The notes beneath the pieces are model-generated. The model did not search any database, was not told where the DNA came from, and was given only the letters and a program-made list of their open reading frames with translations. This document shows positions 12,071 to 33,501 of a DNA stretch of 47,693 nt, piece by piece. The position numbers and the translations under genes are program-made. The stretch lies in sequence record SRR20825006_962; one strand, 5' to 3'. Each line of letters starts with the position of its first letter. Positions within the stretch are counted from its first letter, which is position 1.

Positions 12071-12147
12071 TTTGATGAAATGAGTGAGCCGCGTTATCGG
12101 CTGTGTCTGACAAGGGGATCGCACCTGTCTGAGTATGACTAGGATGC

Positions 12148-12324: not shown

Positions 12325-12365
12325 TGGAAGGCTGTCCCATTTCTCGATGCCGATTTAATGATGGA

Positions 12366-12614: not shown

Positions 12615-12730
12615 GCGTACTCCCTTTTCAGCCAAGCTACGATACCAACTCGTATATATATACAAGAAAACAAAAAAATATAGCATATACATATATGTTT
12701 TTCTGGCCGGACTAGTTGCAATTTCCTAGT

Positions 12731-13081: not shown

Positions 13082-13443
13082 GACCTTAAGCGATCATATA
13101 TCCGCCTCACGACTGGATACGTGTGGGAAATGCTAGCGCGGTGTTGCCAAAGGTCCGCCGTCCTTGGTCAGGAGATTGTATGGCCCTATAAAAGCGTGGC
13201 CATCTAGTATGGACTGTAAAATTCACGAGTGAGCAAGATTATTCAATAGAAGACAGGACTCAAGAAGACAGGACTCACGAAGAATCGATGAGAAAATCGT
13301 TGGTTTTCGGCTGTGTGAATCAAGGGCCTTTAAACCAGTCCACGCTTCTTCTGATAAATCCTCTCTACTTTTGATGAGGCTGAGAAGCAAGATGCCATTG
13401 AAGCCCTGCGGCCGAACAACGTCCAACATGCATGGCAATGGGG

Positions 13444-13908
13444 CTATGAATAGAGCAGGAAAGCACTAGTTTCGTCGGAGACTTTTAATTCTATTGGGTG
13501 TTTCGTTCCCGCGACGATTAGTCCGACATAGGTTTTCGACGTTCCCGCGACAAAAAACACCATATGCTGCGTGGTATGTTCGGTAATCGCTCTCCAGGTT
13601 GAGCGGTCAATATAAGAGGGTGCAGCCTGTCCAAAAGGGTGTGTGTGCCATTCGCCTATCCAGTCAGTTTTCCCTCCAGACTTAAACCATTCCCGATTTG
13701 CAACGTCACTATGTCCATCGGTAGACCGAAAAAAACTTGCTCGCGTTCCGATATCGGAAGGGAAAGGGGTTGTTATTTTTGTAACTTCCAATGCCCCGTT
13801 TTTGCGACAGCCAAGTACCAACCCTCCGTGCTCAACTTGGTTTAGAGGTTTTTTCAGAAAGCCACGCATCTGCGCTATAGCTCTCTTGGCCACCAAAACC
13901 TTGGTCAT
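13444..13908 (-). CDS. cap3: CBASS Cap3 JAB deconjugase
   Basis: EHGGLVLG, IGEWHTHP...PSYID; overlaps the cap2 stop. Confidence 0.9.
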   Translation of the reverse strand: MTKVLVAKRAIAQMRGFLKKPLNQVEHGGLVLGCRKNGALEVTKITTPFPSDIGTRASFFRSTDGHSDVANREWFKSGGKTDWIGEWHTHPFGQAAPSYIDRSTWRAITEHTTQHMVFFVAGTSKTYVGLIVAGTKHPIELKVSDETSAFLLYS

Positions 13909-15566: not shown

Positions 15567-16750
15567 TAGGCGGAGGTTGACGTGATAATGGAAGGTGCGG
15601 GAACGCTGGCTGCTGCTGATTTCTGAATGACGCTGATTTGATCCTCAAACTTCACCGCGTCAGGGCAGTCGGGCATGCGATCGCCAAAAGCTTTTATCAG
15701 TGTTTGCACGACTTTTGTAGCGTCTCCGGTTTGGGTGAGTGCGGTCTTCATTTTCACTGCCAGTTCGCGAGCCGCATCGACCAAGATGAGCTTTTCTTTG
15801 TTTGTCCAGTCATTCAAGATGAGGTTCCCAAGCACCGGATTCTTTATCTTGCCATCTAGAATGTCAGGCAGGATCGCCGCCACCTCAAGAACGAGCGCAT
15901 CATCGCGCGTTTCAACTGGGGCACCATCGAGGTCCTGCAATGCCTTGTCGACCGCACACATAATACATAAAGATGAAAGTGGGGAGATCGGCCAACTAAA
16001 ATCCCGCCAACCTTTGAAGAAGCGGCTAAGTCTACGATAAACGGGGCCGTATCGCTCCACTCTACCCATTACCCAGTCATGTAGCTTTTGCGGGTCTGAC
16101 TCTAGCCAAGTGCCGTTCCGTTTTGCCAGCATAACTTGATCTGACGGCAGTTTGGCTGCTGTATTCAGCCGACCATGAGACATTTTGGCGAGGTTCACGT
16201 CTTCACGTAACGCTTCTACAATACGCTCGAAACGATCAGCAGGAACCGAATAGATCGGAACATCAATGTGCGCGCTGCGAGACAAGCATACACGCACGCA
16301 GCTGCTCTTTGTTTCGTCTAAACTCCAATTGTTTTCGTCGCACAGATCCCCCAACGCTTGTTCGACGAACTTGAAAAGCCCTTTTGCGGTGAGCGCAGGT
16401 TCACCATTTTCCAAGAACTCGACGGGGATATACATCCCGTCGTCCAGGTCAATTTGTTGTTGGGGTACAAAAATTGGCGCGTTAATAGTGCCATAAGCAA
16501 AGCTGCCCTGCGTCATGAACTTCACTTCAATGGTAGGGCGGCGCGTTGAAGGAACGCTACGAACGTAGCGTTCATCCCAAAACTCATCTTTGCCGCGTAT
16601 CTTGCTAACGGCAGTTCGCAAGCAAGTACGAATTTTATTTCGAGCGTTCATGAGTTTCTTCCGATCCTCATCAGGAATCGTAAGTCTCGCCAGATAGCTG
16701 GGTTCTTGCTTTAATCCATTGAATAGTGCGTGGGCATTCGCTTGCATCAT
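15566..16750 (-). CDS. CBASS CD-NTase (DncV/CdnA-like cyclic dinucleotide synthase)
   Basis: TQGSFAYGT...QIDLDDG, KSSCVRV, HIDVPIY, SDP, FKGWRD; extended tail ending ITSTSA, the kind of tail conjugated by Cap2. Confidence 0.92.
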   Translation of the reverse strand: MMQANAHALFNGLKQEPSYLARLTIPDEDRKKLMNARNKIRTCLRTAVSKIRGKDEFWDERYVRSVPSTRRPTIEVKFMTQGSFAYGTINAPIFVPQQQIDLDDGMYIPVEFLENGEPALTAKGLFKFVEQALGDLCDENNWSLDETKSSCVRVCLSRSAHIDVPIYSVPADRFERIVEALREDVNLAKMSHGRLNTAAKLPSDQVMLAKRNGTWLESDPQKLHDWVMGRVERYGPVYRRLSRFFKGWRDFSWPISPLSSLCIMCAVDKALQDLDGAPVETRDDALVLEVAAILPDILDGKIKNPVLGNLILNDWTNKEKLILVDAARELAVKMKTALTQTGDATKVVQTLIKAFGDRMPDCPDAVKFEDQISVIQKSAAASVPAPSIITSTSA

Positions 16751-16826
16751 TGAGTTTCCCTAGCCAACTATTTGATATAGAAATGTGGATATTAACACAG
16801 CTTCGTGCAAGTGGAACACTTAACCA

Positions 16827-17513
16827 ATGTATCGAATTTTACCCAAAAAGTTGATCGTTCTTACGATTGCACAACTCGGAATTGGTGTATTTCTATTGCT
16901 TGAGCTTTTGTTCAACGCAAACCCTCGGATCCCCTTTGCCGCTCTGTTGGTCTGGGGCGTTGTCAATGGGATTGCATGGAAGCCGGTTTGGCAATGTGTA
17001 TGGCGTCGTTTCCCGATACTGAGTGAGAAAATCTTCCCGGACCTGAATGGTGAATGGGACGTAACCTTGAATAGTAATTGGTCAAGAATTCAACAGCTTC
17101 AATGCACAGCAAAGTCAGGCACGGGCATACTTAATATGGAAACTTGTCCCGATACCATGTTGGCACCCCTGAGCAGTGTGAACCTTCGAGCAAAAATTCA
17201 TCAGACTTGGTTTGGGTTTGAAATGCGGATTTTCAATCCGGCGCAAAACTCGCCCATCCAGGACTCTGAAACGATCGTGATCGAACCGATTGCGCCAAAT
17301 GGACTGCGTCGGGCTGGAATTTGCTATCTGTATTCACAGAGAAACCAGACTGACGTTCTCACGGATGACGCGTGCTTCGACGGGGCTGCTCGGTTGGAAT
17401 ACGACGCGGACTCGGACAGTCTGGATGGCTATTTTTGGACGAACAGAATGTGGCGCAGAGGGATGTGCACAGCGGGCACAATTACTTTCATGCGGAGAAG
17501 GAACGAGATTTAG
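16827..17513 (+). CDS. Cap15-like 2TM plus beta-barrel CBASS membrane effector
   Basis: Two TM segments, then W..W...FPDLNGEW...SNW, YLY...FDGAARL...LDGYFWTNR...TAG. Confidence 0.75.
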   Translation: MYRILPKKLIVLTIAQLGIGVFLLLELLFNANPRIPFAALLVWGVVNGIAWKPVWQCVWRRFPILSEKIFPDLNGEWDVTLNSNWSRIQQLQCTAKSGTGILNMETCPDTMLAPLSSVNLRAKIHQTWFGFEMRIFNPAQNSPIQDSETIVIEPIAPNGLRRAGICYLYSQRNQTDVLTDDACFDGAARLEYDADSDSLDGYFWTNRMWRRGMCTAGTITFMRRRNEI

Positions 17514-17648
17514 CCGCGAACACCGATCTTATGCAGTTTGGAAATGGCTAGAGCCCGTTCATTCAATGTTGGCGGTCGGGCGCCCAACTGATGATATGAT
17601 TTGGTGCGGCATGCGACCTGCATCGCGTCTGGTGCGACAATGGTGCAA

Positions 17649-17957
17649 CTATTCAAAGGGCTTAAACCCGAACAAAAAGATATTGTCTCCGTCTTCATAG
17701 GTTCCGGCAAGAAAGCTGTAGGCATCAATGACGTTTTCATCGAGACCGTAACCAGTGGCCCCGGTTAGCACTTCGTGAATTTTATCCCTGAATTTCGTCC
17801 AGTTATTCAACCTTCCAATTGTACCAACCCCAGGGTCGTAGAAGCATGCTTGATCGACACCTCTTGTGGAGAGTTGGTAGAGTTTCAATACATTGGAGAG
17901 CTCTTCTTTGATCTCATTTCCTGTACCGTCACAACAAATTACGATGTTTTTTGGCAT
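17649..17957 (-). pseudogene. Truncated DUF2235/Tle1-like alpha/beta-hydrolase
   Basis: KNIVICCDGTGN, SNVLKLY, FYDPGVGT, GYGL, IFLFGF; homology stops exactly where the GFSRG nucleophile motif should be. Confidence 0.8.
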
Positions 17958-18058
17958 GATTTGTTCCCCCCCCCTGTCGCCTCTACCCCAAGGCGAATTC
18001 TACACACAAAATGGTTGAGTTGGGAAGTTATTAGCTGTTTACTTAAAGCAATTGGCTA

Positions 18059-18910
18059 ATGATTGAGGATGATCCTATGTATAACTCTGTATCTTGGAAG
18101 ACACTCGTACTAGCGGCGTCGTTGTTTATTTCCACCGGAGGAGCGTCAGGACAAGATTGCCCGGTATTGGATGCGGCGATTCAGCAGGAGTTAAAAAAAC
18201 AGCATCTGGGGCCATTTGAGCCCTCTGGTGTAGCAATAGTGCACCGTGCTTATGCGCTGAGCTTTAATACCGAAACTTTGGTGCCTAACTGGGTGGCTTG
18301 GAGGGTGGATCCAAGTTACCGGGACACACCAAAACGTATGGGTCGTTGGTCCAGCTTTCGCCCAGATCCAGACGTACCCGAGAACTTTCGAGTAGTTGCT
18401 GAGGATTACACCAATAGTGGGTATCATCGGGGCCATTTGGCGCCGTACTTTATATCTGGTGGGGATCGTGACGGGGATGGTTTAGATGCAGAGTATGAAA
18501 ATAGGCCTGGCCTGCCCATTGAAGATATCGATGATGCGTGTACAGTTTTTGAGATCAACTACATGAGTAACATGAGCCCTCAACTGCCTCGGTTTAATAG
18601 CCAAGGAGGCGCTTGGTATGATTTGGAATCTCAGACGCGGGATGAAGTGGATGCTGGAGCGTCGTATCAAGTGATTGCCGGGAACATCTTTTTAGGTCAA
18701 TCGTTTAAAAAGATCGGGGCTGGCCGCCTTAAGATCTCGGTACCAGACGCTATGTATAAAATACTGTACGATGGCCAAAGCATGAGGGCATACGTGTTTT
18801 ATCAGGAAAGCGACTTTGGATATTCATTTGGCTGCTTACCAAAAGCAGAACTCTCAGCTTGTGAAGTATCCTTAGATGATCTTCGAACCCTTCCGGGTGT
18901 CAGCTTTTAG
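18059..18910 (+). CDS. Secreted DNA/RNA non-specific endonuclease (NucA/Serratia-type)
   Basis: Signal peptide, PNWVAW, FRPDP, DYTNSGYHRGHLAP, YMSNMSPQ...FN, VPDAMYK. Confidence 0.88.
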   Translation: MIEDDPMYNSVSWKTLVLAASLFISTGGASGQDCPVLDAAIQQELKKQHLGPFEPSGVAIVHRAYALSFNTETLVPNWVAWRVDPSYRDTPKRMGRWSSFRPDPDVPENFRVVAEDYTNSGYHRGHLAPYFISGGDRDGDGLDAEYENRPGLPIEDIDDACTVFEINYMSNMSPQLPRFNSQGGAWYDLESQTRDEVDAGASYQVIAGNIFLGQSFKKIGAGRLKISVPDAMYKILYDGQSMRAYVFYQESDFGYSFGCLPKAELSACEVSLDDLRTLPGVSF

Positions 18911-19831: not shown

Positions 19832-20010
19832 TGATCTTCCCCCCAGATTGAGGCAATTTCCTAGGTTAGGAATTTGATGGTTATCATGCGACGGCCTTCT
19901 CAGCTACAGGCAAGTTAGCGGAAGGAGCCGGAGGCGACAGGAAGCGTCTTGCCTGTAGCTTTGCAAACGTCGCTGGCGGCTGGTACCCCAGCGAACAGTG
20001 AGGCCGTGAA
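19832..20010 (-). mobile_element. IS3-family right-end remnant
   Basis: RPHCSLGYQPPA integrase tail and terminal IR-like TGATCTTCCCCCCAGATTGAG. Confidence 0.55.
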
Positions 20011-20409
20011 AAGACGCTGATCATCATCGTCAACTGTGGGCAGGCGGCGAAGATCTGTTTCTGCACCTCGATGAACACCGGCCCGCGCGCTGAAAGTGGC
20101 TTCGACCTCGCACCGACCGAGATATTGGCAATAAGGTGGACCCAATTAGTCATCATAATATATTGCAGTTTATACCTACCTGCTCCTTTGCCTTGCGGCA
20201 GGTCACCGTTCGGTTGTACGAACTCGCGGGGCACTTAGTGTGTTTTGATTTGCACAGAGGAGTTCTGTGGTTTTGTCAACATTAGTCCCTGATAGGGCGA
20301 GCGTTCGAACTAACGTTGTATTGACCGCCTAACATCAACGTAAGAGTCCAAGCGCATCCTGACTATTGATTGCTCGAATCCCGACCAATCATGACAAAAT
20401 ATCGCCCCA

Positions 20410-20438
20410 TTGACTTATGTTATAGCGTATCTTAAGAA
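20410..20438 (+). promoter_or_regulatory. Putative sigma70 promoter with a degenerate Zur-like box in the spacer
   Basis: TTGACT-N17-TAAGAA; ATGTTATAGCGTATCTT compared with the Zur consensus ATGTTATAnTATAACAT; lies upstream of a ZnuD-like receptor. Confidence 0.35.
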
Positions 20439-20480
20439 CTGCTCTGTGAGCTGGAAGACTTAGCATCAAGGAAAACACCA

Positions 20481-20810
20481 ATGTCAGCGCACTGGCTACG
20501 TGGTCGGCGAATAATGAATTGGTTTGCAAGCCTGCATGTCGCACCGTTGCTTACGGCTATTTTCTTGTGCGCTCAAATCCTGGCGACAGCTCACAGCGCC
20601 TTCCATGCGGAGGTTGCTCACATCCATGGCGAGCCGCCATGTATCGTTGCAGCCGCGAGCAAACCATTCGACACGATGGATGTTGCCCCACCAATACCAC
20701 CTTTTGGGTGCAATACTTCATACCGCCTTATTGAGGCCTTTTCGCAAATCCCTGCACGAAACATAGCTGCCTCGACACATGCCATCAGATCCCCTCCTAC
20801 TTTCAGCTAA
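20481..20810 (+). CDS. DUF2946-like His-rich exported leader protein ending in RSPP (start may be 20514)
   Basis: Signal-like segment, AHSAFHAEVAHIH..C, C-terminal HAIRSPPTFS. Confidence 0.6.
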   Translation: MSAHWLRGRRIMNWFASLHVAPLLTAIFLCAQILATAHSAFHAEVAHIHGEPPCIVAAASKPFDTMDVAPPIPPFGCNTSYRLIEAFSQIPARNIAASTHAIRSPPTFS

Positions 20811-20924
20811 AGTGCGGAATCGCTCCAAACTGGCGCACCGTGCACTATTTCCACCAAATTTGATTTCAGCTGAATGAAGGGCTGGTCGGGCATATATGGT
20901 TCCGCGGCCCGTAGGACCTTTAAA

Positions 20925-23015
20925 ATGTTAGCTTCATCTACTCAAAACGCTCACTCACGCAAGTGGTCACTTTTGTTGTCGGCAAGCCTGTTCGCTGGCC
21001 CTGTCGCTTTGGCAGAAAGTTCGACAAAAAACGTACCGCCACTTGAGGACCATCTGGAAGAGATCATAGTCTCCAGCGCATTTGAAGGTCGCGAGCTCGG
21101 TGAGACGATCCTGGGTGCAACCGTACTCACAAAGCAAGATCTGGCACGCCAGATCAATGGTTCTATAGGCGAAACACTGCGCCGCCAGCCCGGCATGAGT
21201 TCCACCTTCTTTGGTCCTGGCGCCAGTCGCCCTGTGATCCGCGGGCTTGGCGGCGCCCGTATCCGGGTCTTGGACTTAGGCCTCGGTTCGCTCGATGCCT
21301 CTTCCACTAGCCCGGATCATGCCGTCGCTGCTGAACCCGCCCTTGCAGAACGCATTGAGATTCTACGTGGCACTGCAATGTTGATGTACGGCAGTTCGGC
21401 TGCTGGTGGTGTGATAAATATTTTCGATGGCCGCATCCCTATAACTGCGCCTGAGGACGGAATTGAAGGGGCGGTTCGCTATGGACACAGCAGTGTAGAT
21501 AATGGCGACGAAGCAACGGCAGCGGTTAATGCCCGCCTTGGTGCATTTGGCGCTACTGACATTGTTTTTCACGGCGATGTAAGCTGGCGAGACACAAATA
21601 ATTACAAGATTCCGGGCTTTGCACAGTCCAATACTCTGCGCGAACTTGAAGGCAAAGACGGTGGAGATATTGAAATTGCAGAAAACTCCGCGACCAATAC
21701 AACGGCTGGCTCGGCAGGGCTAAGCTTTATTTTTGGTAACGGGTTCTTTGGTATGAATGTAAAAAAGCTTAACAGCCAGTACGGTTTGCCGGGGGCGGCT
21801 CATGAAGAAGAGGGTGCTGAAGAAGAATCTGTCACCATTGACCTGGACCAGACTCGTTATGACCTACACGGCGAACTAACAGGCGACTATGGTTGGTTAA
21901 AAAAAGCGAAATTCCGATTTGGGTACGGCGACTTTTTGCACACTGAGCTTGAAGGCGAAGAGACCGGCACTGTGTTTGCCAACGAAGGGTGGGAAAGCCG
22001 CCTGGACCTTATCGAAAAAGGCGGCACAAACTGGAGCGGCGCAACTGGCATCCAAATGCAGTACCGCGATTACTCTGCTATAGGCGCAGAAGCATTTGTT
22101 CCTCCGACGCAAAGCACCCAATTCGGTTTCTATAGTGTGAAAGACTTTTCATACGGCGCTTGGCAACTCGAATTAGGTGGCCGCTATGAATACACCGAAC
22201 ACCAGGCAGACAGCCTTAATATGTCCCGTTCCTTTAACGGCATCAGTTTTTCCGCAGGTGCGGGTTACGACATAACCGAAGCAGCTTTCCTGGGGCTGTC
22301 AGTATACCGCACCGAGCGCGCGCCAGCTATCGAGGAATTGTTCTCCGATGGCCCACACCTCGCGACAAATGCGTTTGAACGTGGCGACACTTCTCTCGGG
22401 TTAGAAACGGCACTTGGCATCGAGGCAACCTATACATATGCAACGGGCCCGCTTAGCATCGTGATCAATGGCTTCTATACAGCCTATGATGATTTTATCT
22501 ATGAACAGGCAACCGGGCAGGAGGAAGACGACCTGCCGGTATTTGTATTCCAGGCAGCCGATGCGAAGCTTTATGGCTTTGAGGCCCAAACCAAGATCCA
22601 CCTCGGCGCGACAAAGGTGGGGGCCTTCGGAAAGGTCGATTGGGACCTGGACGCACAGGTAGATTATGTGCGTGCCGTTTTGAAGAATGGTACTGGCGAC
22701 ACGGACTTACCGCGAATCCCCCCGCTATCCGGCCTGATCGGCATAGAGGCAAGTACGCGTTTGTTTGACCTGCGGACTGAGTTTGAATACTCAGCTACGC
22801 AAAACAAGACTGCGTCGTTTGAACTTGCGACTGAAGACTATCTTCTTTGGAACACTTATTTGACCCTCCGCCCCTTTGACAATCAGCGCCTATCGGTCGA
22901 GCTACGTGGCACGAACCTAACCAATAGAGACGCCCGCCAGCATACGAGCTTCCTGAAAGATCTTTTGCCGCTGCCTGGCCGCAACTTTAGTATTTCACTG
23001 CGCGCGGAATTCTAA
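20925..23015 (+). CDS. TonB-dependent receptor, ZnuD-like (zinc/metal uptake); the ORF extends to 20874
   Basis: GETL..PGMSSTFFGPGASRPVIRG...DASSTSPDHAV plug, ELFSDGPHLAT, HTSFLKD...PGRN, C-terminal F; AGGA RBS before ATG 20925. Confidence 0.88.
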   Translation: MLASSTQNAHSRKWSLLLSASLFAGPVALAESSTKNVPPLEDHLEEIIVSSAFEGRELGETILGATVLTKQDLARQINGSIGETLRRQPGMSSTFFGPGASRPVIRGLGGARIRVLDLGLGSLDASSTSPDHAVAAEPALAERIEILRGTAMLMYGSSAAGGVINIFDGRIPITAPEDGIEGAVRYGHSSVDNGDEATAAVNARLGAFGATDIVFHGDVSWRDTNNYKIPGFAQSNTLRELEGKDGGDIEIAENSATNTTAGSAGLSFIFGNGFFGMNVKKLNSQYGLPGAAHEEEGAEEESVTIDLDQTRYDLHGELTGDYGWLKKAKFRFGYGDFLHTELEGEETGTVFANEGWESRLDLIEKGGTNWSGATGIQMQYRDYSAIGAEAFVPPTQSTQFGFYSVKDFSYGAWQLELGGRYEYTEHQADSLNMSRSFNGISFSAGAGYDITEAAFLGLSVYRTERAPAIEELFSDGPHLATNAFERGDTSLGLETALGIEATYTYATGPLSIVINGFYTAYDDFIYEQATGQEEDDLPVFVFQAADAKLYGFEAQTKIHLGATKVGAFGKVDWDLDAQVDYVRAVLKNGTGDTDLPRIPPLSGLIGIEASTRLFDLRTEFEYSATQNKTASFELATEDYLLWNTYLTLRPFDNQRLSVELRGTNLTNRDARQHTSFLKDLLPLPGRNFSISLRAEF

Positions 23016-23067
23016 AATGTCATATGTTTGAAAGCTCCTGACGACGGATAAGATGCATTGTAGCCAA

Positions 23068-23265
23068 AAAGATGCCGAAGCGCTGGAGCGTATGGGGCAA
23101 GTTGATACACCTACTGTCGACAAAGCTGCGCATATACTCTGGACAAACCAGTAATGATTCATATTGTTTTGCAAGGACATGTTTTAGAAGAAGACGTCTT
23201 GCGACTTGCTGCGAACCTTGAAAGAGGGAGTGAGCGTCCACTTGCGGAAGCAATTGTGACCGCCT
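23068..23265 (+). pseudogene. P1B heavy-metal ATPase remnant
   Basis: KDAEALERMGQVDTPTVDK (degenerate DKTGT) and LRLAANLERGSERPLAEAIV (SEHPLA-like) in different frames. Confidence 0.7.
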
Positions 23266-23365
23266 CGTATGATAAAGGCTACAGATATTCTGAAAAGCAA
23301 CTAAACGATAAACTGAATAAAATGTTAACAGTAGCTTCAGCAGGATAGATCTAATGCTAATGTGC

Positions 23366-23394
23366 TTGATCAGGAGCGCGTTCCGGTCTAGCCT
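23366..23394 (+). promoter_or_regulatory. Putative sigma70 promoter of leader 1
   Basis: TTGATC-N17-TAGCCT, positionally conserved with the promoter at 25168. Confidence 0.5.
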
Positions 23395-23424
23395 TCAGGC
23401 TCTAGTCAAGAACGTGGACGAAGA

Positions 23425-23784
23425 ATGACGGCAACCTTGGTTAAACGGCATGTAGCACTAACAGCGCTTTTCGCGCTGATGTTCATGCGTTTTATTGACC
23501 TAGCTGTCTTTGACATTGACCATGAGCACATCAAAATGTCGCATGTTCAGGTCCATGCAAGTGAAATTGCGCACAGCCATAACCACAGCGAGCCGACTGA
23601 GCATGATTCGCTGGACGGCAAGTCAGCCCATGTGGGGTTTCACACATTTCTGAATGTTTTCATTGACGTTGACGCTGTGGCACTACCTGTGTTCCATTAT
23701 TTTAATGCCCGCTTCGGCCTTGTGGCCAATGAGCGAGCGCGTACTTATGGGAACAGGCCTCCGGTCCCCCCTCCTTTAGTCTGA
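23425..23784 (+). CDS. His-rich exported leader protein, copy 1 (CzcI/DUF2946-like architecture, RPPVPPP tail)
   Basis: Hydrophobic N-terminus, His-rich middle, C-terminal RPPVPPPLV; 79/119 residues identical to 25227-25586 by hand count. Confidence 0.8.
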   Translation: MTATLVKRHVALTALFALMFMRFIDLAVFDIDHEHIKMSHVQVHASEIAHSHNHSEPTEHDSLDGKSAHVGFHTFLNVFIDVDAVALPVFHYFNARFGLVANERARTYGNRPPVPPPLV

Positions 23785-23848
23785 TTTCTTCAGATCGTGA
23801 TACCTGCACTGGGCTGTTGCCCGGTGCCTATTGTTGTATTTGATGAAA
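23785..23848 (+). promoter_or_regulatory. RNA hairpin covering the ribosome-binding region of the hupE/ureJ-like gene
   Basis: TTTCTTCAGAT/ATTTGATGAAA outer stem and GCACTGGGC/GCCCGGTGC inner stem; covaries with 25587-25650. Confidence 0.65.
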
Positions 23849-23855
23849 GTAAGAC

Positions 23856-24560
23856 ATGATGAATTTCCATGGGAAAGCAGCCGTTGCTGCTACCACTTTA
23901 TTAGCCATGCTTGTGTTTGGCCTCACGTCCGGCGCCTGGGCGCATGGGGTGGATGAAGGAACGAAGCAGTTTTTGCTTCAAAATGCCGGACTGGAGGTGA
24001 TTGCCTTTATGTATATCGGCGCAAAACATATGGTCACGGGCTATGACCATCTGTTGTTTCTCGTCGGTGTGATCTTTTTTCTCTATAAGTCCAAAGATGT
24101 GCTTCTCTACGTCACGCTGTTCACCATTGGGCACAGCCTCACGCTGATGACCGGCGTGCTGAATGACATTGCCGTCAATCCGTATCTGATCGACGCTGTC
24201 ATTGGCCTGTCGGTCGTCTATAAGGGGTTCGACAATCTGGGTGGGTTCGAACGCACGGTGGGCTTTAGGCCCGACACACGTGCGATGGTGCTGATCTTCG
24301 GCTTGTTCCACGGTTTTGGCCTAGCGACCAAGCTGCAGGATTTCCCGATTGATGAAGAGAGTCTTTTGGGCAATATGCTGTCGTTCAATGTGGGGGTGGA
24401 GCTTGGGCAACTGTCAGCGCTTCTGATCATCCTGTTGATTCTTGGATTCTGGCGGCACCATGCAAGCTTCCGTCGATTCGCCACCATCACCAATTTTTCG
24501 CTTATGTCCGCCGGGATGATGCTGATCGGATATCAGCTCACCGGCTATCTTGTTGCCTAG
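23856..24560 (+). CDS. HupE/UreJ-family metal-binding membrane protein
   Basis: AWAHG, GAKHMVTGYDHLLFL, FTIGHSLTL, FGLFHGFG, FNVGVELGQ. Confidence 0.9.
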   Translation: MMNFHGKAAVAATTLLAMLVFGLTSGAWAHGVDEGTKQFLLQNAGLEVIAFMYIGAKHMVTGYDHLLFLVGVIFFLYKSKDVLLYVTLFTIGHSLTLMTGVLNDIAVNPYLIDAVIGLSVVYKGFDNLGGFERTVGFRPDTRAMVLIFGLFHGFGLATKLQDFPIDEESLLGNMLSFNVGVELGQLSALLIILLILGFWRHHASFRRFATITNFSLMSAGMMLIGYQLTGYLVA

Positions 24561-24571
24561 GGAGGCCCAAT

Positions 24572-25144
24572 ATGTCTAACGATCATCAGTTGCTTTCAAC
24601 CAAATCTCTCGTGCGCGGCAGCCTTGTCGCTGCGGTGTTCGCCGGTGTGGTGCTTGTTACGCTGATCCTGCCGGCTGAATATGACGTCGACCCACTGGGG
24701 ACCGGCAAGGCGCTCGGGCTGACCGAGATTGCCGCTGCCGCAGATAAGGCGGAGACAACACCCGCGGCACCTGCAGAGGCAGCGCCTCCAGTACCTGCAG
24801 AGACCGCGCAAGTGTTCGCGGAGCGCGAGGACACCATTGAGATCCCGATCGCCGCGGGCAGAGGGCTTGAATATAAACTACATATGATGCCTGGCGCCAA
24901 GGTGAGCCATGAATGGAGCGTTGAGGGCGGCGAGCTCTATTACGACTTCCACGGCGAACCGCAGGGCGACACCACGGGCTATTATGAAAGCTTCGCTATC
25001 GCTACGTCAGCGGGCATGAGTGGGCTCTTTTACGCGCCATGGGAAGGCTCCCACGGTTGGTACTGGAAGAACAAGACCGACAAGGACATGACCATCAAGC
25101 TGACGCTGAAGGGCAGCTATGAGATCAAGGGCCTGAGGCAGTAA
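24572..25144 (+). CDS. Membrane-anchored periplasmic protein next to the HupE/UreJ gene
   Basis: TM plus LPAEYDVDPLG, Ala/Pro linker, GLEYK, YYDFHGEP, HGWYW. Confidence 0.75.
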   Translation: MSNDHQLLSTKSLVRGSLVAAVFAGVVLVTLILPAEYDVDPLGTGKALGLTEIAAAADKAETTPAAPAEAAPPVPAETAQVFAEREDTIEIPIAAGRGLEYKLHMMPGAKVSHEWSVEGGELYYDFHGEPQGDTTGYYESFAIATSAGMSGLFYAPWEGSHGWYWKNKTDKDMTIKLTLKGSYEIKGLRQ

Positions 25145-25152
25145 CGATCACA

Positions 25153-25196
25153 AGCGCGCCATCTGACTTGATTGATGGCGCGCTACCGTTTATCGT
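25153..25196 (+). promoter_or_regulatory. 11-bp inverted repeat overlapping the putative sigma70 promoter of leader 2
   Basis: AGCGCGCCATC/GATGGCGCGCT; TTGATT(25168)-N17-TATCGT. Confidence 0.5.
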
Positions 25197-25226
25197 CCCA
25201 ACTCTCGACTAAGAAGCGGCAGGCAG

Positions 25227-25586
25227 ATGACAGCAACCCTGATCAGACGGCACATGGCATTGACAGCGCTTTTCGCGCTGATGTTCCTGCGCTTTGTTGA
25301 TCTGGCTGTCTTCGACATGGACCACGACCATGTGGTCACGCCGCATGTGAAGGTGCATGCGAGTGGGATGTCGTACGGCCATGACCTGGACGAGCCGACC
25401 GAACATGCCACGCTGGACGTTAAGTCCGCCCATGTTGGGTTTCATACGCTTTTGAATGTATTCACCGATGTTGAGGCTGTGGAAGTCCCCGTGATGGTGC
25501 ATTTCACGGCTCGCTTTGGGTTTCACGCCAATGAGGATGCCCGCGCCCATGCGCACAGGCCGCCCGTTCCCCCACCTTTAGCCTGA
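25227..25586 (+). CDS. His-rich exported leader protein, copy 2, in the czcI position
   Basis: Paralog of 23425-23784, ends RPPVPPPLA, immediately upstream of czcC. Confidence 0.8.
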   Translation: MTATLIRRHMALTALFALMFLRFVDLAVFDMDHDHVVTPHVKVHASGMSYGHDLDEPTEHATLDVKSAHVGFHTLLNVFTDVEAVEVPVMVHFTARFGFHANEDARAHAHRPPVPPPLA

Positions 25587-25650
25587 TCTCTTCAAAGCCC
25601 AATACCCGCGCCAGGCATGTGCCCGGCGTGCCTTATTGTATTTGATGAGA
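25587..25650 (+). promoter_or_regulatory. RNA hairpin covering the ribosome-binding region of czcC
   Basis: TCTCTTCAAA/TTTGATGAGA outer stem and CGCGCCAGGC/GCCCGGCGTG inner stem. Confidence 0.65.
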
Positions 25651-25660
25651 GTAGAGCATC

Positions 25661-26971
25661 ATGACTTTTGAGAAGAGAGCAGCTTTTGCTGCTGTCGGTC
25701 TGTTGGCAGGTTTGGCGCTTTTGGGCGCGCCTGCGACGGCCGAGACACTGACCAAGGACGCTGCCATCCAGCGTATCCTTGACGCATCCCCGAGCCTGGA
25801 GGCCGCCCGCGCCCGTATGGCAGAGATGGATGCGGCCATCACCCAGGTGGGGGTGAAACCCAACCCAACCATTGGGGCGGAGATTGAGAACTTCACCGGC
25901 ACAGGCCCTTTCACGGGGCTTGACCGGACGGAGCTGACCGTCACCTACGCCCAGCAGTATGAGCGCGGCAACAAGCGCGGCCTCAGGACCGAACTTGCGC
26001 GCGAAGAAGCCGGGATAACCGAGGCAGAGTGGCATGTGCGTCGCCTGGACCTCATTCATATGGCCGAGAGGGCCTATGTGGAGGCTGTTGCGGCGAAGGC
26101 TCGCGTCGCCGCACTTGAAGCGCAACTGATGATCCTGCGGGACATCGAGACAGCGATCCGTAAACGGGTGACGGCGGGCAAGGATAGTGAGCTCGCTGCA
26201 CAGAACTCCGCTATCCGTACGTTGAACGCGGAAAACACACTGCAGGAAGCCAAGCGCCAGATGGAAACCGCCAAGCTGGCGCTCGCGGCCCTGTGGGGCA
26301 GCGACGCAGCAGAATTCACCTTGGCGTCCACGGACATGCTGGCGCTTCCCGTGGCGGTAAAGGCGGTGAACCCGGACACTGTACAAGATGGCCCTGATAT
26401 GGTGGTCTGGTACAAGAAAGAGGCGGCCCAGTCTGCTGCGCTCCGGCTTGAAAAAGCCAAGGCCGTGCAGGACCCAACGGTACGAGTGGGCCTGCGATAT
26501 CACCAGCAAACGTCTGATGTGGCCGCTGTCGCAGGTGTAACTATCCCGCTCGCTGTCCATGATACCAACAAGGGAAACATCAGCCGGGCACGGGCGGCGG
26601 TCAGTCGCAGCCGGTTCGAGCAGATGGAGGTTGAGCGTCAGCTTTCCCGCCGGTTGATGATGGCTCACAACCAGCAATTGACGGCCTTCCAATCAGCAAG
26701 GAAACTGGACGCCAACTGGCGCGCGGCGGAGACAGCCAAGCAGTTGGTCATGGACCGGATGGCCAAAGGGGCCGCATCATATCTGGATGTATTTGCCGCG
26801 CAATCGCTTCTCGCGGACATTGAAATGCAACAGCTTGACGCCGTTACCCGTTTTCATCTCGCTCAGGCTGACATCGATCGTCTGACAGCAACCTATTCCA
26901 CAGACGCGGTTACGCCCGCCGCTGCCATTGCAGTTGACGCGGATAACGAGACCGAACGCGAAGGAAATTGA
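25661..26971 (+). CDS. czcC: TolC-family outer membrane factor of a heavy-metal RND system
   Basis: Signal peptide, PNP...E.G.KR..R, PD...G...IPL...N.GNI; first gene of the CBA cluster. Confidence 0.88.
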   Translation: MTFEKRAAFAAVGLLAGLALLGAPATAETLTKDAAIQRILDASPSLEAARARMAEMDAAITQVGVKPNPTIGAEIENFTGTGPFTGLDRTELTVTYAQQYERGNKRGLRTELAREEAGITEAEWHVRRLDLIHMAERAYVEAVAAKARVAALEAQLMILRDIETAIRKRVTAGKDSELAAQNSAIRTLNAENTLQEAKRQMETAKLALAALWGSDAAEFTLASTDMLALPVAVKAVNPDTVQDGPDMVVWYKKEAAQSAALRLEKAKAVQDPTVRVGLRYHQQTSDVAAVAGVTIPLAVHDTNKGNISRARAAVSRSRFEQMEVERQLSRRLMMAHNQQLTAFQSARKLDANWRAAETAKQLVMDRMAKGAASYLDVFAAQSLLADIEMQQLDAVTRFHLAQADIDRLTATYSTDAVTPAAAIAVDADNETEREGN

Positions 26972-28227
26972 ACGTGACACATTCTATTCTGAAAAAACTG
27001 ACTACGCTTGCAGTAGCGACGCTGATGCTTGCGGCATGTGGGCAGCAATCAAACGGTCAAGCCATGTTAGGTGGCGAAGGACAGCCTCTACAAGACGAGG
27101 CACCCAAGGGACCAAACGGCGGACTCCTTCTCTCAGACGGCGATTTCGCGATTGAGGTGACCATTTATGAAAAGGGTACGCCACCACAGTTCCGTCTTTA
27201 TGCCTATGAAGGTGGCAAGCAGGTGTCTCCTGAGGGCGTTGAAGCCACCATCACGCTGGGTAGATTGGATGGTGAAGAGAATCGCTTTGCGTTCAGGCCA
27301 GAGGCCGACTACCTGTCCGGTGACGGTGTGGTGACAGAACCGCACTCCTTCGATGTGAGGGTCGAGGCCAAATACAAGGGGAGGACACACCGCTGGACAT
27401 ACGACAGCTACGAAGGTCGGGTTACAATTGATTCATCAATGGCGCGCGAGATGGGTATCACTGTGGAACCCGTAGGAGCCCGGACCATCGAGAAAACTCT
27501 CGACTTGTTAGGGCGCGTGGAGTTCGCGCCGGACGCCCAGTCTACGCTTCGGGCACGTTTCCCGGGCAAAATCCTGGAGGTCCGCAAGACCGAAGGGCAA
27601 ATGGTCAAGGCTGGTGAAGTGCTCGCGCGTATTGAGAGCAACGAAAGCTTGCAGCCATACAATGTTACCGCCCCGATGGACGGCGTGATCGTCAGCCGCA
27701 CGGCCCAGAAGGGCGATGTGGTCTATGACCGGCCGCTCTTTGTGATCGGAAACCTCTCGCGCCTGCGGATCGATTTCCATGTCTATCCTGGTGATGTCGC
27801 CACGGTGCAACCTGGCCAGAAGGTGATGATTACGTCCGTAGACGGTAAACGCCAGGCGGAGACGGAGCTGGAGTTCTATCTGCCAACGGCGGAGAGCGCC
27901 ACGCAGACTTTGATCATGCATGCACCGCTCGCGAACCCGTCCAAAATCTGGATGCCGGGCATGACCGTTAAGGGCCAGGTTGTGGTTAGCCGCCGCGAGG
28001 TGCCGCTTGCCGTCAGGCCTGATGCCCTGCAGCGCTTCCGCGATTTCACTGTGGTCTTCGCCCAGGTTGGCGAGACCTATGAGGTGCGCATGTTGGAGCT
28101 TGGCGAATACACACCAGAGTGGGTTGAGGTGCTGGGCGGTATCAAGCCGGGCCAGCCTTATGTCACCGGCAACAGTTTTATCATTAAAGCGGACATTGAG
28201 AAGTCCGGTGCGTCCCACGACCACTAG
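26968..28227 (+). CDS. czcB: Periplasmic adaptor (MFP) of a heavy-metal RND system, lipoprotein
   Basis: Lipobox LAAC, KGPNGG, EPHSF, lipoyl-like G..VKAGEVL, ends KSGASHDH; TTG start overlaps czcC. Confidence 0.88.
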   Translation: MNVTHSILKKLTTLAVATLMLAACGQQSNGQAMLGGEGQPLQDEAPKGPNGGLLLSDGDFAIEVTIYEKGTPPQFRLYAYEGGKQVSPEGVEATITLGRLDGEENRFAFRPEADYLSGDGVVTEPHSFDVRVEAKYKGRTHRWTYDSYEGRVTIDSSMAREMGITVEPVGARTIEKTLDLLGRVEFAPDAQSTLRARFPGKILEVRKTEGQMVKAGEVLARIESNESLQPYNVTAPMDGVIVSRTAQKGDVVYDRPLFVIGNLSRLRIDFHVYPGDVATVQPGQKVMITSVDGKRQAETELEFYLPTAESATQTLIMHAPLANPSKIWMPGMTVKGQVVVSRREVPLAVRPDALQRFRDFTVVFAQVGETYEVRMLELGEYTPEWVEVLGGIKPGQPYVTGNSFIIKADIEKSGASHDH

Positions 28228-31416
<3,189 letters not shown>

Positions 31417-31423
31417 GTTCAAA

Positions 31424-31456
31424 AGGCTTGGCCCTTTTGGGCCAAGCCTGCTTTTG
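31424..31456 (+). terminator. Rho-independent terminator after czcA, probably bidirectional
   Basis: AGGCTTGGCCC-TTTT-GGGCCAAGCCT flanked by AAAA and TTTT. Confidence 0.8.
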
Positions 31457-31728
31457 GCATCTATTAGATTATGGCATAATTGCTATGCGTGCGGACAAGA
31501 TGAGCCTAGGGCAGCAGGACAATGACTTTCATAGTGTCAGTGAGAAAGTGGAAAAAAACACCCATCAGGTGGTACGCTTCACCGTCATCATAAAAGGTAG
31601 GCGAGATCACCGCCGGACTTATGTTTGGTTCCGTGGCGCATCAGGCCTAAGGCTGGCACATGGGCATCCTCGCCTCCAAAGCTGACCTTCATGCGGAGTG
31701 TGGATAGCTGCCAAAGCATTCATAATAC

Positions 31729-32252: not shown

Positions 32253-33501
32253 TGGACTTGTCTTAAAAAAAGTGGACACGATCATGCTCTTTAAGCGGCT
32301 AGTTTTTCGTACGCCATTGGGCTGATGTTGCCAAGGGTCGAATGCCTTCGTCTCCTGTTATAGAAGTTCATGATGTACTCATATGGTCCTTTCTGCCTGT
32401 TCTCGACTTTCAAACTTCACCCGCCATACCAGTTCGGCCTTCAAACTCTTGAAGAAGGCTTCCACAACAGCATTGTCGTAACAATTTCCCTTGCCGGACA
32501 TGGACGGCAGGATGCCGTGTCGTTTGAGCGTCATCTGATATTCTGTTGCCACATATTGGCTCCTACGATCTGAATGATGGACCAGGCCTGGCTCTGGCCG
32601 CCTGAGGGCAATGGCCATCTTCAGGGCTCGAAGCGCAAGATCCTGCTTCATACGGTCACTCATGTGCCAGCCCACAATACGACGGCTGTAGAGATCCATC
32701 ACGACAGCCAGGTAAATCCAGCCGCGGATGGTGGCGATGTAGGATAGGTCAACGACCCATTTCTCGTTGGGCCTTTGGGCCGGGAAATCCTGCTCCAGCA
32801 GGTTGGGTGCATAGCCGAAGAATGGCACGAGCCCTCGGCGCTGATACCGCTTCCTGCGGCTCCTGATGGCCTGGATGCCATTCTCGCGCATGAGCCGACC
32901 AATCTGGGTGTGACCAACAGCCCAGCCTTTCTCCTTCAGTTCTTCGACCATTCTCGGGAGACCATAGGAATAGTGGCTGCTTTCAAACTCGGCCTTGATA
33001 GGGGCAAGCAGCACCATGTCTTCCCGCGCCCGTTTGCTGGCAGGACGATTGCTCCAGGCATAATAGCCGGACCGGGACACCGCCAGTATGTTGCACAGAC
33101 GGTTCACCTGATGATGCGCCTTCTCCACATCGATAAATCGGTAGCGCATTACTTTTGGCTCGCGAAGAAGGCTGTTGCTTTTTATAGTATTTTACGCTCC
33201 TCACGCAGGATCTAGTTCTCCCGACGGAGCTGGGCAAGCTCCCGCTGCAAGTCATCAGTGCCTCCCAAGGACTCGCTGGTGCCTTTCTGGTCCTGTCGGT
33301 ATTGAGTGATCCATTTGCCAAGGGTTGACTTGCCGATCCCTAGATCAGTTGCAACCGCTTCTCTGGGCAAGCCGCTAGTCAGCGCCAGCTTTACTGCTTC
33401 ACGCTTGAAGTCTGCTGAATGTCTCTTGTGGGCCATAATTTCCTCCAATCAGTATTCCTGATTCTGTTGAAGGTCGCGTCCACTTTTTTAAGACAAGTCC
33501 A
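32253..33501 (-). mobile_element. IS3-family element, degenerate (orfA about 33150-33436 with stops; orfB 32379-33149 frameshifted at its 3' end)
   Basis: IRs TGGACTTGTCTTAAAAAA(A)GTGGAC at both ends; DDE motifs WVVDLSYI, HHSDRRSQY, YDNAVVEAFF; flanks do not match. Confidence 0.92.

What the first reader, a model, noticed from the sequence alone, without database searches (positions are those of the whole stretch)
23366..25663. Duplicated promoter + His-rich leader + covarying hairpin module heading two different metal operons
Seen: the same cassette precedes the hupE/ureJ pair and czcCBA. It comprises a TTGAT-N17 promoter, a 119-aa protein (79/119 identical; hydrophobic N-terminus, His-rich middle, invariant RPPVPPPL tail) and a 64-nt hairpin beginning at the first base after the stop. 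The hairpin's 3' arm (TTTGATGAAA / TTTGATGAGA) lies 7-10 nt before the next ATG. The stems covary (U-A to C-G, G.U to A-U) and keep the same U.U mismatch. No czcRS-type regulator is adjacent. Known: secM- and cutF-type leaders couple ribosome stalling to opening of an SD-sequestering hairpin, and PPP stalls ribosomes in an EF-P-dependent way. Inference: a portable cis-acting attenuator in which the exported nascent His-rich chain senses periplasmic metal and sets translation of the downstream genes. This would recast CzcI-position genes as arrest peptides. It is among the best candidates for an undescribed system here.
Basis: partly seen in the sequence, partly recalled or inferred. Interest (0 to 1): 0.85.

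Follow-up and report, generated by a model that had tools for sequence, protein, structure and literature searches.

The report
His-rich proline-tailed leaders gating metal genes

Summary
Two 119-aa ORFs (23425-23784, 25227-25586; 79 of 118 aligned residues identical) each carry a conserved TTGA-N19-TA promoter. Each is followed, from the last sense codon to about 4 nt before the next ATG, by a four-tier hairpin whose 3' strand holds the GAGAG/GAAAG Shine-Dalgarno-like site of hupE or czcC.

The same layout recurs in 8 further distinct loci of Kordiimonadaceae-type bacteria, and in looser form in 5 of 6 distant relatives that precede OEP/czcC genes. Base pairs are kept through compensatory changes.

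The protein family is small (28 representatives among 1.84 billion). All 33 aligned members have an N-in/C-out hydrophobic start. All have an invariant HxxxH placed 40-41 residues before PPP, and 32 of 33 have PPP exactly two residues before the stop. Synonymous codons in the tail vary freely, so selection acts on the peptide.

This is the anatomy of CutF/CruR (DUF2946) nascent-chain metal sensors. Ozturk et al. 2023 already reported such leaders before OEP genes, and histidine-only ones before HupE/UreJ genes.

By sequence the family is not DUF2946 (no Pfam hit; hhalign 17%) and not CzcI.

Verdict: a new variant of a known kind. The mechanism is inferred, not shown.

The parts
23366..23394 (+). 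Promoter-like site of copy A: TTGATC (23366-23371), 17-nt spacer, TAGCCT (23389-23394)
   Evidence: Read. TTGA and TA...T align and are invariant or nearly invariant in 10 copies. Not listed by the consensus scanner.
23425..23784 (+). Leader ORF A, 119 aa: N-terminal hydrophobic helix, His-rich middle, HxxxH (H69, H73), tail RPPVPPPLV-stop
23779..23855 (+). Four-tier hairpin A. P0 pairs the last sense codon and the first stop base with AGAC before the ATG. P1 pairs UUUCUUCAGA with UUUGAUGAAA and holds the SD-like GAAAG (23845-23849). P2 follows. P3 is a GC-rich apical stem (23806-23827).
23856..24560 (+). HupE_UreJ_2 family membrane protein; its first ~12 codons resemble those of czcC
   Evidence: Pfam PF13795, E 9.9e-55.
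24572..25144 (+). 190-aa membrane-anchored protein of unknown function, conserved after hupE in L001
25154..25183 (+). Inverted repeat GCGCGCCATC / GATGGCGCGC straddling the -35 of copy B; either the terminator of the hupE operon or an operator
   Evidence: Read. Present in winB, L001B, L002 and L004 (4 of 10 copies). Function not tested.
25168..25196 (+). Promoter-like site of copy B: TTGATT, 17-nt spacer, TATCGT
25227..25586 (+). Leader ORF B, 119 aa, tail RPPVPPPLA-stop
25581..25660 (+). Hairpin B. P1 pairs UCUCUUCAAA with UUUGAUGAGA and holds the SD-like GAGAG (25647-25651). P2 follows. P3 is the GC-rich apical stem.
25661..31416 (+). czcC (OEP, 25661-26971), czcB (HlyD-type, 26968-28227), czcA (RND, 28246-31416)

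Best explanation
Each cassette is a constitutive sigma-70-type promoter, a leader ORF and an RNA switch. The leader encodes a small N-in/C-out membrane-targeted peptide. Its periplasm-facing His-rich segment, with the invariant HxxxH, binds a divalent metal while the chain is still attached to the ribosome.

The invariant tail PPxPPPL[A/V]-stop slows elongation or release in the last few codons. The fixed 40-41-residue spacer puts HxxxH at the tunnel exit or translocon at that moment.

A ribosome dwelling on the last codons or the stop melts P0 and P1. Their 3' strand carries the GAGAG/GAAAG ribosome-binding site of czcC or hupE, so the dwell time sets how often the downstream gene is initiated.

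Without a ribosome there, the four-tier hairpin sequesters the site.

Shown here: the ORFs, the structure, its conservation and covariation, peptide-level selection on the tail, the fixed spacing, and the predicted topology.

Inferred: metal binding, stalling, the direction of the response, and action in cis.
For: 1. Hairpins fold far better than shuffles (z -5.7 and -5.5) and persist in 141-nt contexts.

2. The same structure is the MFE in 9 of 10 distinct close copies. In 5 of 6 distant relatives a stop-adjacent stem pairs with the purine run before the next start. L014, L015, L016 and L018 are clear, L013 is weaker and L017 is not.

3. On 10 sequences, 90-91% of cells are paired against 41-50% when the partner is slid. 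7 of 23 pairs (9 of 27 with P0) change on both sides. The covariation score is 0.38 against 0.30 in shuffles, with 0 of 500 shuffles as high.

4. The duplex between the first 12 nt after the stop and positions -22..-4 of the next start lies in the lower tail of shuffles for all 16 regions (fraction 0.004-0.16).

5. A covariance model hits only the leader 3' flanks in 229 kb of held sequence (11 hits).

6. In the tail, Pro, Leu and Arg codons vary synonymously while the residues are fixed. dN/dS between A and B is 0.21/0.94.

7. 32 of 33 members end PPP + 2 residues + stop, read; the tally shows 30 because its pattern caught an earlier PPP in P0033 and P0036. H69 and H73 are invariant, and the spacing to PPP is 40 or 41 in 33 of 33. 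This parallels the conserved 45-residue CXXC-RAPP spacing that matters functionally in CruR (PMC9426467, passages).

8. All 33 have one N-terminal segment with KD19 >= 1.75, and 32 of 33 have a more positive N flank. AlphaFold gives a confident helix at 2-29 and little else (pLDDT 68, pTM 0.31).

9. CutF (118 aa, tail GPPPRL) works this way experimentally (PMC9973294 and bioRxiv 10.1101/2025.02.05.636593).

10. No metal regulator lies adjacent.
Against: There are no expression or functional data. No RNA run was available.

GAGAG/GAAAG is only a weak match to a Shine-Dalgarno sequence.

Geometry: with P116 in the P site, the channel reaches only the last sense codon and the stop (P0). P1 is covered only at termination. 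So a PPP stall alone would not free the site, and the pause that matters may be at release. Alternatively, stall release rather than stalling may be the ON signal.

The same cassette heads an exporter and a HupE-type gene, and HupE/UreJ proteins are usually taken as Ni/Co importers. One logic for both is awkward.

Invariant charged residues inside the hydrophobic segment (R22, D25, D30 in the close family) suggest the mature peptide may have a role of its own.

The covariation rests on 10 related sequences. The tool's own notes say shuffle controls can be exceeded by relatedness alone.
Confidence: 0.6

Rival explanations
1. Plain translational coupling. The 119-aa product is a working small membrane metal-binding protein, a CzcI-like accessory. 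The hairpin only makes czcC or hupE translation depend on passage of a ribosome through the leader. There is no metal sensing by the nascent chain.
For: The hairpin covers the stop codon and the SD, so any terminating ribosome would open it. Residues in the hydrophobic segment and HxxxH are conserved as in a functional protein. dN/dS is 0.22.
Against: This does not explain why PPP sits exactly two residues before the stop in 32 of 33 members. It does not explain why the poorly conserved, low-confidence 40-41-residue spacer has a fixed length. Both are hallmarks of the tested CruR/CutF sensors.
Confidence: 0.2
2. Transcription terminator or attenuator. The GC-rich apical stem P3 with the U-rich 3' strand stops most transcripts after the leader. 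Regulation, if any, is of read-through.
For: The scanner lists 23806-23827 and 25613-25633 as terminator-like, with tails CTATTGTTGT and TATTGTATTT. The U-rich TTGTTGTATTTGATG is nearly invariant in the close family.
Against: In my reading, L014, L015 and L018 (3 of the 6 distant regions) keep the outer anti-SD/SD stem with no U-rich run after the inner stem; in L016 the bases after it are moderately U-rich. The U-rich strand is itself paired in P1 and P2. The cassette heads operons that must be transcribed through it.
Confidence: 0.08
3. CruR-type logic. Metal sensed by the nascent leader relieves a pause and shuts the downstream gene off, for example through Rho. This would at least suit the hupE copy.
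For: CruR, the other tested relative in kind, represses a metal importer this way (PMC9426467). HupE/UreJ proteins are usually importers (established knowledge; no call).
Against: The spacers are short (71-77 nt) and fully structured, unlike the 162-nt cruR-bfrG spacer. The same hairpin design precedes the exporter czcCBA, which should be switched on by metal.
Confidence: 0.07
4. Inert relic of a segmental duplication. The shared promoter, ORF and hairpin reflect common descent only.
For: The two copies lie 1.8 kb apart, and similarity stops at sharp borders.
Against: dS between the copies is 0.94, yet the promoter hexamers, pairings and tail are kept. The layout recurs in 8 other distinct loci and in distant relatives.
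Confidence: 0.03

Closest known systems
CutF of Rhodobacter capsulatus (cutFOG; Ozturk et al. 2023 mBio, PMC9973294; bioRxiv 10.1101/2025.02.05.636593)
   Same: Size is similar (118 versus 119 aa). Both have an N-terminal export signal, a metal-binding motif in the exported part, and PPP two residues before the stop (GPPPRL versus PPPL[A/V]). Both have a short spacer with a stem-loop that shields the SD of the next gene, and a first-gene position before metal-homeostasis genes.
   Different: The motif here is HxxxH with no Cys, not CxxxC. There is no detectable sequence relationship to DUF2946. The targets are czcCBA and hupE, not a multicopper oxidase. The N-terminus looks like an uncleaved anchor. 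Function here is untested.
CruR (Bp2923) of Bordetella pertussis, DUF2946 (Roy et al. 2022, PMC9426467)
   Same: It is an upstream ORF whose nascent product senses a metal. It has a conserved, functionally important spacing between the metal motif and the Pro motif (45 residues there, 40-41 here) and an N-in/C-out export signal.
   Different: CruR has CXXC and RAPP three residues before the end. It has a 162-nt spacer, Rho-dependent termination and repression of an importer, and it is independent of EF-P and of its signal peptide.
His-only CutF-like clusters (SSN 14 and 17) upstream of HupE/UreJ in Ozturk et al. 2023
   Same: They are described as CutF-like, carry His-rich motifs only and lie next to HupE/UreJ genes. 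That matches copy A.
   Different: Their sequences are in supplements that I could not open, so identity with this family is unknown. In the loci held here the family mostly precedes OEP/czcC: 14 of 16 regions (for L017 by sequence reading only, since Pfam found no OEP there). 2 of 16 precede hupE.
CzcI of Cupriavidus metallidurans pMOL30
   Same: It is a small ORF (115 aa) directly upstream of czcC with a 75-nt spacer. That spacer also opens with a strong hairpin right after the stop (z -3.3).
   Different: There is no sequence similarity (hhalign probability 1.1%; no tblastn hit in 72,556 plasmids at E <= 1). CzcI has a Cys/His motif and no PPP tail. It lies beside czcRS.
SecM, MifM, VemP arrest peptides
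   Same: An exported nascent chain pauses the ribosome near its C-terminus, and this opens a hairpin over the next gene's ribosome-binding site (as summarised in the bioRxiv introduction).
   Different: Those monitor the secretion machinery, not a metal, and are unrelated in sequence.

Membership tests
Pfam DUF2946 (PF11162; CruR/CutF family) | Match to the PF11162 profile above its cut-off (23.7 bits) | tested here: not met
   0 families for both window copies at E <= 0.1. Of 33 family members, 0 reach it and 1 has E 0.21. The same profile finds true members in 41 of 301 genomes of the class sample (the tally includes one unpublished genome, G241).
Pfam DUF2946 (PF11162; CruR/CutF family) | Profile-to-profile homology with bona fide members | tested here: not met
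   hhalign of A3 against 23 alphaproteobacterial DUF2946 proteins gave probability 17%, with only 16 columns of the N-terminal hydrophobic segment aligned. The 23 came from 31 loci; 8 were dropped by my motif filter.
Pfam DUF2946 (PF11162; CruR/CutF family) | CXXC (CutF: CxxxC) metal motif | tested here: not met
   No Cys in either window copy. Invariant HxxxH instead.
Pfam DUF2946 (PF11162; CruR/CutF family) | [quoted passage not shown] | tested here: not met
   The tail is RPPxPPPL[A/V], with PPP two residues before the end. CutF itself has GPPPRL.
Pfam DUF2946 (PF11162; CruR/CutF family) | Conserved spacing between the metal motif and the Pro motif | tested here: met
   40 residues in 7 and 41 in 26 of 33 members, against 45 +/- 1-2 in DUF2946. 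The same kind of ruler with a different value.
Pfam DUF2946 (PF11162; CruR/CutF family) | N-terminal export signal (signal peptide or N-in/C-out anchor) | tested here: met
   Hydropathy and flank charge in 33 of 33 and 32 of 33 members. AlphaFold helix 2-29 with pLDDT 86-94. No SignalP-type predictor was available.
CutF-like proteins, rule-based definition of Ozturk et al. 2023 | [quoted passage not shown] | tested here: met
   119 aa, PPVPPP in the last 8 residues, spacers 71-77 nt. Definition.
CutF-like proteins, rule-based definition of Ozturk et al. 2023 | SPase-I-cleaved Sec signal peptide by SignalP; recovery by jackhmmer from CutF seeds | not testable with these tools
   No SignalP here.
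CutF-type switch (works-like test) | Stem-loop between leader and target that pairs the target's SD | tested here: met
   Computational only.
CutF-type switch (works-like test) | Acts only in cis; response to metal; dependence on PPP, the metal motif and EF-P | not testable with these tools
   Needs genetics and biochemistry.
CzcI | Sequence similarity to pMOL30 CzcI | tested here: not met
   hhalign probability 1.1%. No tblastn hit in the plasmid collection.
Intrinsic terminator | GC-rich stem directly followed by a U tract, conserved across relatives | tested here: inconclusive
   Scanner hits in both window copies. In my reading, L014, L015 and L018 (3 of the 6 distant regions) show no U-rich run after the inner stem and L016 is moderately U-rich. 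No transcript-end data.

The most novel reading that the evidence does not exclude
This is an independently evolved, histidine-based class of nascent-chain metal sensors for Zn/Co/Ni/Cd-type ions. It is defined by a molecular ruler (N-in anchor, HxxxH, 40-41 residues, PPP, two residues, stop) and a four-tier hairpin that includes the stop codon. It is packaged as a portable cassette: promoter, leader, switch and the first ~12 codons of the target. The cassette has been transplanted from czcC onto hupE. It replaces two-component control of czc pumps in marine Alphaproteobacteria.
Probability: 0.3. Interest if true: 0.65.

Novelty: new variant of a known kind. Interest (0 to 1): 0.5.

Why it matters
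Metal-sensing leader peptides have been shown experimentally only for copper (CutF, CruR). A family with an all-histidine motif before a Co/Zn/Cd-type RND pump and a HupE-type gene would extend the principle to other metals. It would also explain how czc operons without czcRS are controlled.

The very regular anatomy makes clean tests possible. The features are a fixed 40-41-residue ruler, PPP two residues from the stop, and a hairpin that starts in the last codon and ends at the ribosome-binding site.

The two diverged copies in one genome are a natural experiment on specificity. The covarying hairpin gives comparative RNA evidence. The main text of the 2023 paper does not use the word 'covariation' (0 occurrences); its supplements were not visible to me.

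Tried and rejected
- Rfam: no match in 20000-27000 at E <= 1.
- NCBIfam and Pfam: nothing for the leaders.
- PDB sequence search with the family profile: 0 hits.
- Own genome: none held.
- Megablast of 20400-31500 against plasmids: only czcA-like pieces at 70-76% identity, no record covering the cassette. tblastn of leader B against plasmids: no match.
- Sequencing runs: no RNA holder listed. I did not lay reads, because contigs cannot show transcript ends.
- Covariance model in the order sample: 2 of 101 genomes. One is the L002 site again. The other (L050) carries an RNA element identical to L006, so it added no independent sequence.
- I first took L002 4534-5238 and L003 2465-3172 for hupE by length. 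Their translations are unrelated to HupE, so hupE linkage is seen only in the window and L001. L004/L005 have hupE upstream, but the contig ends before a possible copy A.
- The 109-aa ORF before the TonB receptor does not match my DUF2946 profile. Its spacer has no significant fold (z -0.8).
- The AUG inside the 3' arm is out of frame with the downstream start in both copies (my reading). I rejected it as an alternative start.
- P0027 (757 aa) and P0037 (1356 aa) hit the profile in many short stretches. I left them out of A3 as repetitive His-rich proteins.
- A regex miscounted the tails of P0033 and P0036 by matching an earlier PPP. Read, both end PPP + 2.

Full report
**What is in the window**

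The ORF listing and the sequence itself show two 119-aa ORFs on the + strand, at 23425-23784 and 25227-25586. They share 79 of 118 aligned residues (E 2e-58).

The first ORF is followed by a HupE_UreJ_2 gene (PF13795, E 1e-54) and a 190-aa membrane-anchored protein of no known family. The second is followed by czcC (OEP), czcB (HlyD-type) and czcA.

The surroundings look like an island:
- integrases at 5646-10312;
- a CBASS-like set at 10736-18910;
- a TonB-dependent receptor at 20874-23015;
- IS3-type pieces at 32379-33448.

No two-component, MerR or ArsR-type regulator flanks the metal genes. In the isolate genome G001 the leader-czcCBA unit is flanked by unrelated metabolic genes on one side. 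On the other side lie an MFS gene, a TetR-family gene and a TonB receptor.

**The hairpins**

The 64 nt after each stop fold to -25.9 and -26.9 kcal/mol. The z-scores are -5.7 and -5.5, and none of 200 shuffles folds as well.

In 141-nt contexts the fold persists in all four sequences folded. In three of the four (winA, L002, L006; not winB) it gains an outer stem, P0. P0 pairs the last sense codon and the first base of the stop with bases lying between the purine run and the next AUG.

The 3' strand of the next stem, P1, carries GAAAG (23845-23849) or GAGAG (25647-25651). These lie 7-10 nt before the ATG, which is the only Shine-Dalgarno-like element there.

The apical stem P3 plus the U-rich 3' strand is also what the scanner calls terminator-like.

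Rfam has nothing here.

**Relatives of the leader protein**

The protein has no Pfam or NCBIfam match. A word-indexed search found 10 proteins. A full HMMER scan of 1.84 billion representatives with the family profile found 28 at E <= 0.001. Two of these are long repetitive proteins that I set aside.

DNA for relatives came from several searches:
- genome contigs: 3 of 98 candidate stretches confirmed. These are Kordiimonadaceae MAGs and Kordiimonas lipolytica.
- metagenome contigs: 5 of 340 confirmed.
- a class-level sample of genomes: 7 of 401 genomes.

L001 has the same two-copy layout as the window. L005 duplicates L004.

That gives 10 distinct close copies. Two precede hupE (window, L001) and eight precede czcC. 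Six distant relatives with mixed Cys/His motifs also turned up.

I ran Pfam on nine downstream ORFs: six from the distant loci plus L003, L006 and L008. Eight are OEP. The ninth, L017, looks degraded: its ORF is 92 aa and the leader match contains a TAG.

**Conservation of the RNA**

The three-tier fold is the MFE in 9 of 10 close copies. L007 folds differently, but by eye it can form a shifted version.

RNAalifold returns 23 pairs, 7 of them with compensatory changes.

Counting pairs on the alignment gives the following:
- 91% of cells are paired, against 42-50% when the 3' partner is slid by 1-3 columns.
- The covariation score is 0.379, against 0.300 +/- 0.020 in shuffles; 0 of 500 shuffles reach it.
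- With P0 added there are 27 pairs, 9 with double changes, and 90% of cells paired.

One P0 pair links the middle base of the last codon (GUC Val or GCC Ala) to a base between the SD and the AUG. It reads UA in 4 copies, CG in 3 and other in 3.

These are related sequences. By the tool's own caveats the shuffle control is not a probability.

The distant relatives cannot be aligned at the RNA level, but in 5 of 6 the MFE again pairs the bases just after the stop with the purine run before the next start. Examples are ACUCUCU/AGAGAGU, ACUCUCG/CGAGAGU, UCUU..CGA/UCG..GAGA and UCCUUUCC/GGAAAAGGA.

I also computed a duplex between the first 12 nt after the stop and positions -22..-4 of the next start. 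It falls in the lower tail of composition-preserving shuffles in all 16 regions, with fractions of 0.004-0.16.

A covariance model built from the 10 copies hit only leader 3' flanks in 45 sources totalling 229 kb (11 hits). It hit 2 of 101 genomes of the order sample. Neither added an independent sequence.

**The peptide**

I aligned 33 members, with a mean column identity of 39%. Only H69, H73 and the prolines P112 and P115-P117 of the tail are invariant. P113 and L118 are nearly invariant.

PPP lies exactly two residues before the stop in 32 of 33 members. The exception, P0021, has five.

The stretch between H73 and PPP is poorly conserved and of low AlphaFold confidence (blocks of 53-72). 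Yet it is 41 residues long in 26 members and 40 in 7.

Codons for the tail residues vary synonymously among 16 loci: CCT, CCG, CCC and CCA at every Pro position; TTA, TTG, CTC and CTG for Leu. So the constraint is on the peptide, not on the RNA.

Between the two window copies dN is 0.21 and dS is 0.94. This is an old duplication under purifying selection.

Every member has one N-terminal hydrophobic segment (KD19 1.75-2.51). In 32 of 33 the N flank is more positively charged than the C flank. AlphaFold models residues 2-29 as a confident helix. This predicts an N-in/C-out anchor or signal, with the His-rich part outside the cytoplasm.

**The cassette**

Similarity between the copies starts at the -35 hexamer. 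It runs through the leader and hairpin and continues about 35-40 nt into the downstream coding sequence.

In L001 the first 30 nt of hupE and czcC agree at 27 positions, then identity drops to background.

TTGA and TA...T, 17 nt apart as hexamers, are invariant or nearly so in 10 aligned upstream regions.

**What is known**

I read three papers in part.

Ozturk et al. 2023 (PMC9973294; passages and sections 10 and 12):
- CutF is a cotranslationally exported Cu sensor. Its CxxxC motif and proline-rich C-terminus delay completion, so that a stem-loop shielding the cutO SD unfolds.
- It works only in cis.
- Their survey lists 5,334 CutF-like proteins.
- The commonest downstream neighbour is OEP (CusC/CzcC).
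- SSN clusters 14 and 17 have only His-rich motifs and sit before HupE/UreJ genes.
- CzcI falls in a cluster without a Pro motif.

The 2025 preprint (10.1101/2025.02.05.636593; abstract and sections 3 and 21):
- The CutF tail is PEPEGPPPRL.
- The paper shows dependence on PPP and EF-P.

Roy et al. 2022 (PMC9426467; passages):
- DUF2946 is defined by CXXC and by RAPP three residues before the end.
- The spacing between them is conserved at 45 residues and matters for regulation.
- An export signal is present in more than 95% of members.

A search for 'Kordiimonas' with 'czcA' found no paper. A search for 'DUF2946' found 16. In that listing I saw nothing that describes this family.

**Membership**

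By sequence this family is not DUF2946:
- No member reaches PF11162.
- hhalign against 23 true alphaproteobacterial DUF2946 proteins gives 17% probability, over the hydrophobic start only. The 23 came from 31 loci; 8 were dropped by my motif filter.

It is not CzcI either (hhalign 1.1%; no plasmid hit).

It does meet the rule-based CutF-like criteria that I could test. It also has its own version of each DUF2946 hallmark: HxxxH for CXXC, PPxPPPL[A/V] for RAPP, and a 40-41-residue spacing for 45.

I cannot tell whether it is among the His-only clusters of the 2023 survey, because those sequences are in closed supplements.

**Mechanism and its weak points**

I commit to a CutF-type switch at 0.6.

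Established ribosome geometry puts the helicase and entry site about 11-15 nt from the first P-site base. This figure is recalled knowledge; no call supports it.

On that basis, a ribosome held with P116 in the P site reaches only the last sense codon and the stop, which is P0. The P1 5' strand is covered when the stop codon is in the A site.

So there are two possibilities. Either the decisive pause is at L118, A119 or the stop. Or release of a PPP stall, rather than the stall itself, is what lets a ribosome run on and open the ribosome-binding site.

The direction of the response is therefore open.

It is also odd that one design heads both an exporter and a HupE-type gene. Copy A differs in its His pattern (H50 and H54 are present in A and absent in B). 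Copy A also has the weaker GAAAG site.

Plain coupling (0.2), termination (0.08), CruR-like repression (0.07) and an inert duplication (0.03) remain as rivals.

**Verdict**

This is a histidine-based, sequence-distinct variant of the CutF/CruR leader-peptide switch, with unusually clear comparative support for the RNA part. I put interest at 0.5.

Noticed in passing
window 20481-20810 (+), before the TonB-dependent receptor 20874-23015: A 109-aa ORF has a hydrophobic start, an H..H...PC motif and the tail IR[S/G]PPxxS-stop. The tail is conserved in two metagenome proteins at 43-44% identity. The layout is like CruR-BfrG (RAPP-type motif three residues before the end, upstream of a TonB transporter). 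It has no PF11162 match, and its 63-nt spacer has no significant fold. It may be a third leader-type ORF in the same metal island.
   Followed up: partly
window 23856-23895 and 25661-25697; L001 2667-2700 and 4425-4458: The duplicated cassette includes the first ~12 codons of the downstream gene. HupE and CzcC start with near-identical signal-peptide beginnings (L001: 27 of 30 nt). This suggests the cassette was moved together with the 5' end of one target onto the other.
   Followed up: yes
window 25154-25183: The inverted repeat GCGCGCCATC / GATGGCGCGC straddles the -35 of copy B, just after the 190-aa gene. It is conserved in winB, L001B, L002 and L004. It is either the terminator of the hupE operon or an operator.
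   Followed up: partly
L051 15525-15599 (pMOL30 czcI-czcC spacer): The classical czcI-czcC spacer (75 nt) also opens with a strong hairpin directly after the czcI stop (-29.5 kcal/mol, z -3.3). CzcI itself is unrelated in sequence to the family studied here.
   Followed up: partly
window 10736-18910: A CBASS-like defence set lies next to two integrase-type genes (5646-10312). It comprises a CD-NTase (15566-16750), an E1/E2 fusion (13905-15566), two JAB proteins (13444-13908, 10736-11224), a weak Cap15-like receptor match below the Pfam cut-off (16827-17513) and a non-specific endonuclease (18059-18910).
   Followed up: no
window 24572-25144; L001 3358-3909: A 190-aa protein with an N-terminal anchor and a Pro/Ala-rich linker always follows the HupE_UreJ_2 gene. 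There is no Pfam, NCBIfam or PDB match. The Atlas neighbours are labelled 'transmembrane anchor protein family'.
   Followed up: partly
window 32379-33448: IS3-type transposase pieces lie on the - strand shortly after czcA, marking the edge of the metal cluster.
   Followed up: no
L017 1545-2170: This distant family member appears decayed. There is a TAG inside the leader match, the tail is changed to PPVPPLLT, the downstream OEP-like ORF is cut to 92 aa, and the stop-adjacent stem is missing.
   Followed up: partly
P0027 (757 aa), P0037 (1356 aa): Two long proteins match the leader profile in 9 and 6 short stretches around the HxxxH helix. They may be repetitive His-rich proteins and were not examined.
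   Followed up: no
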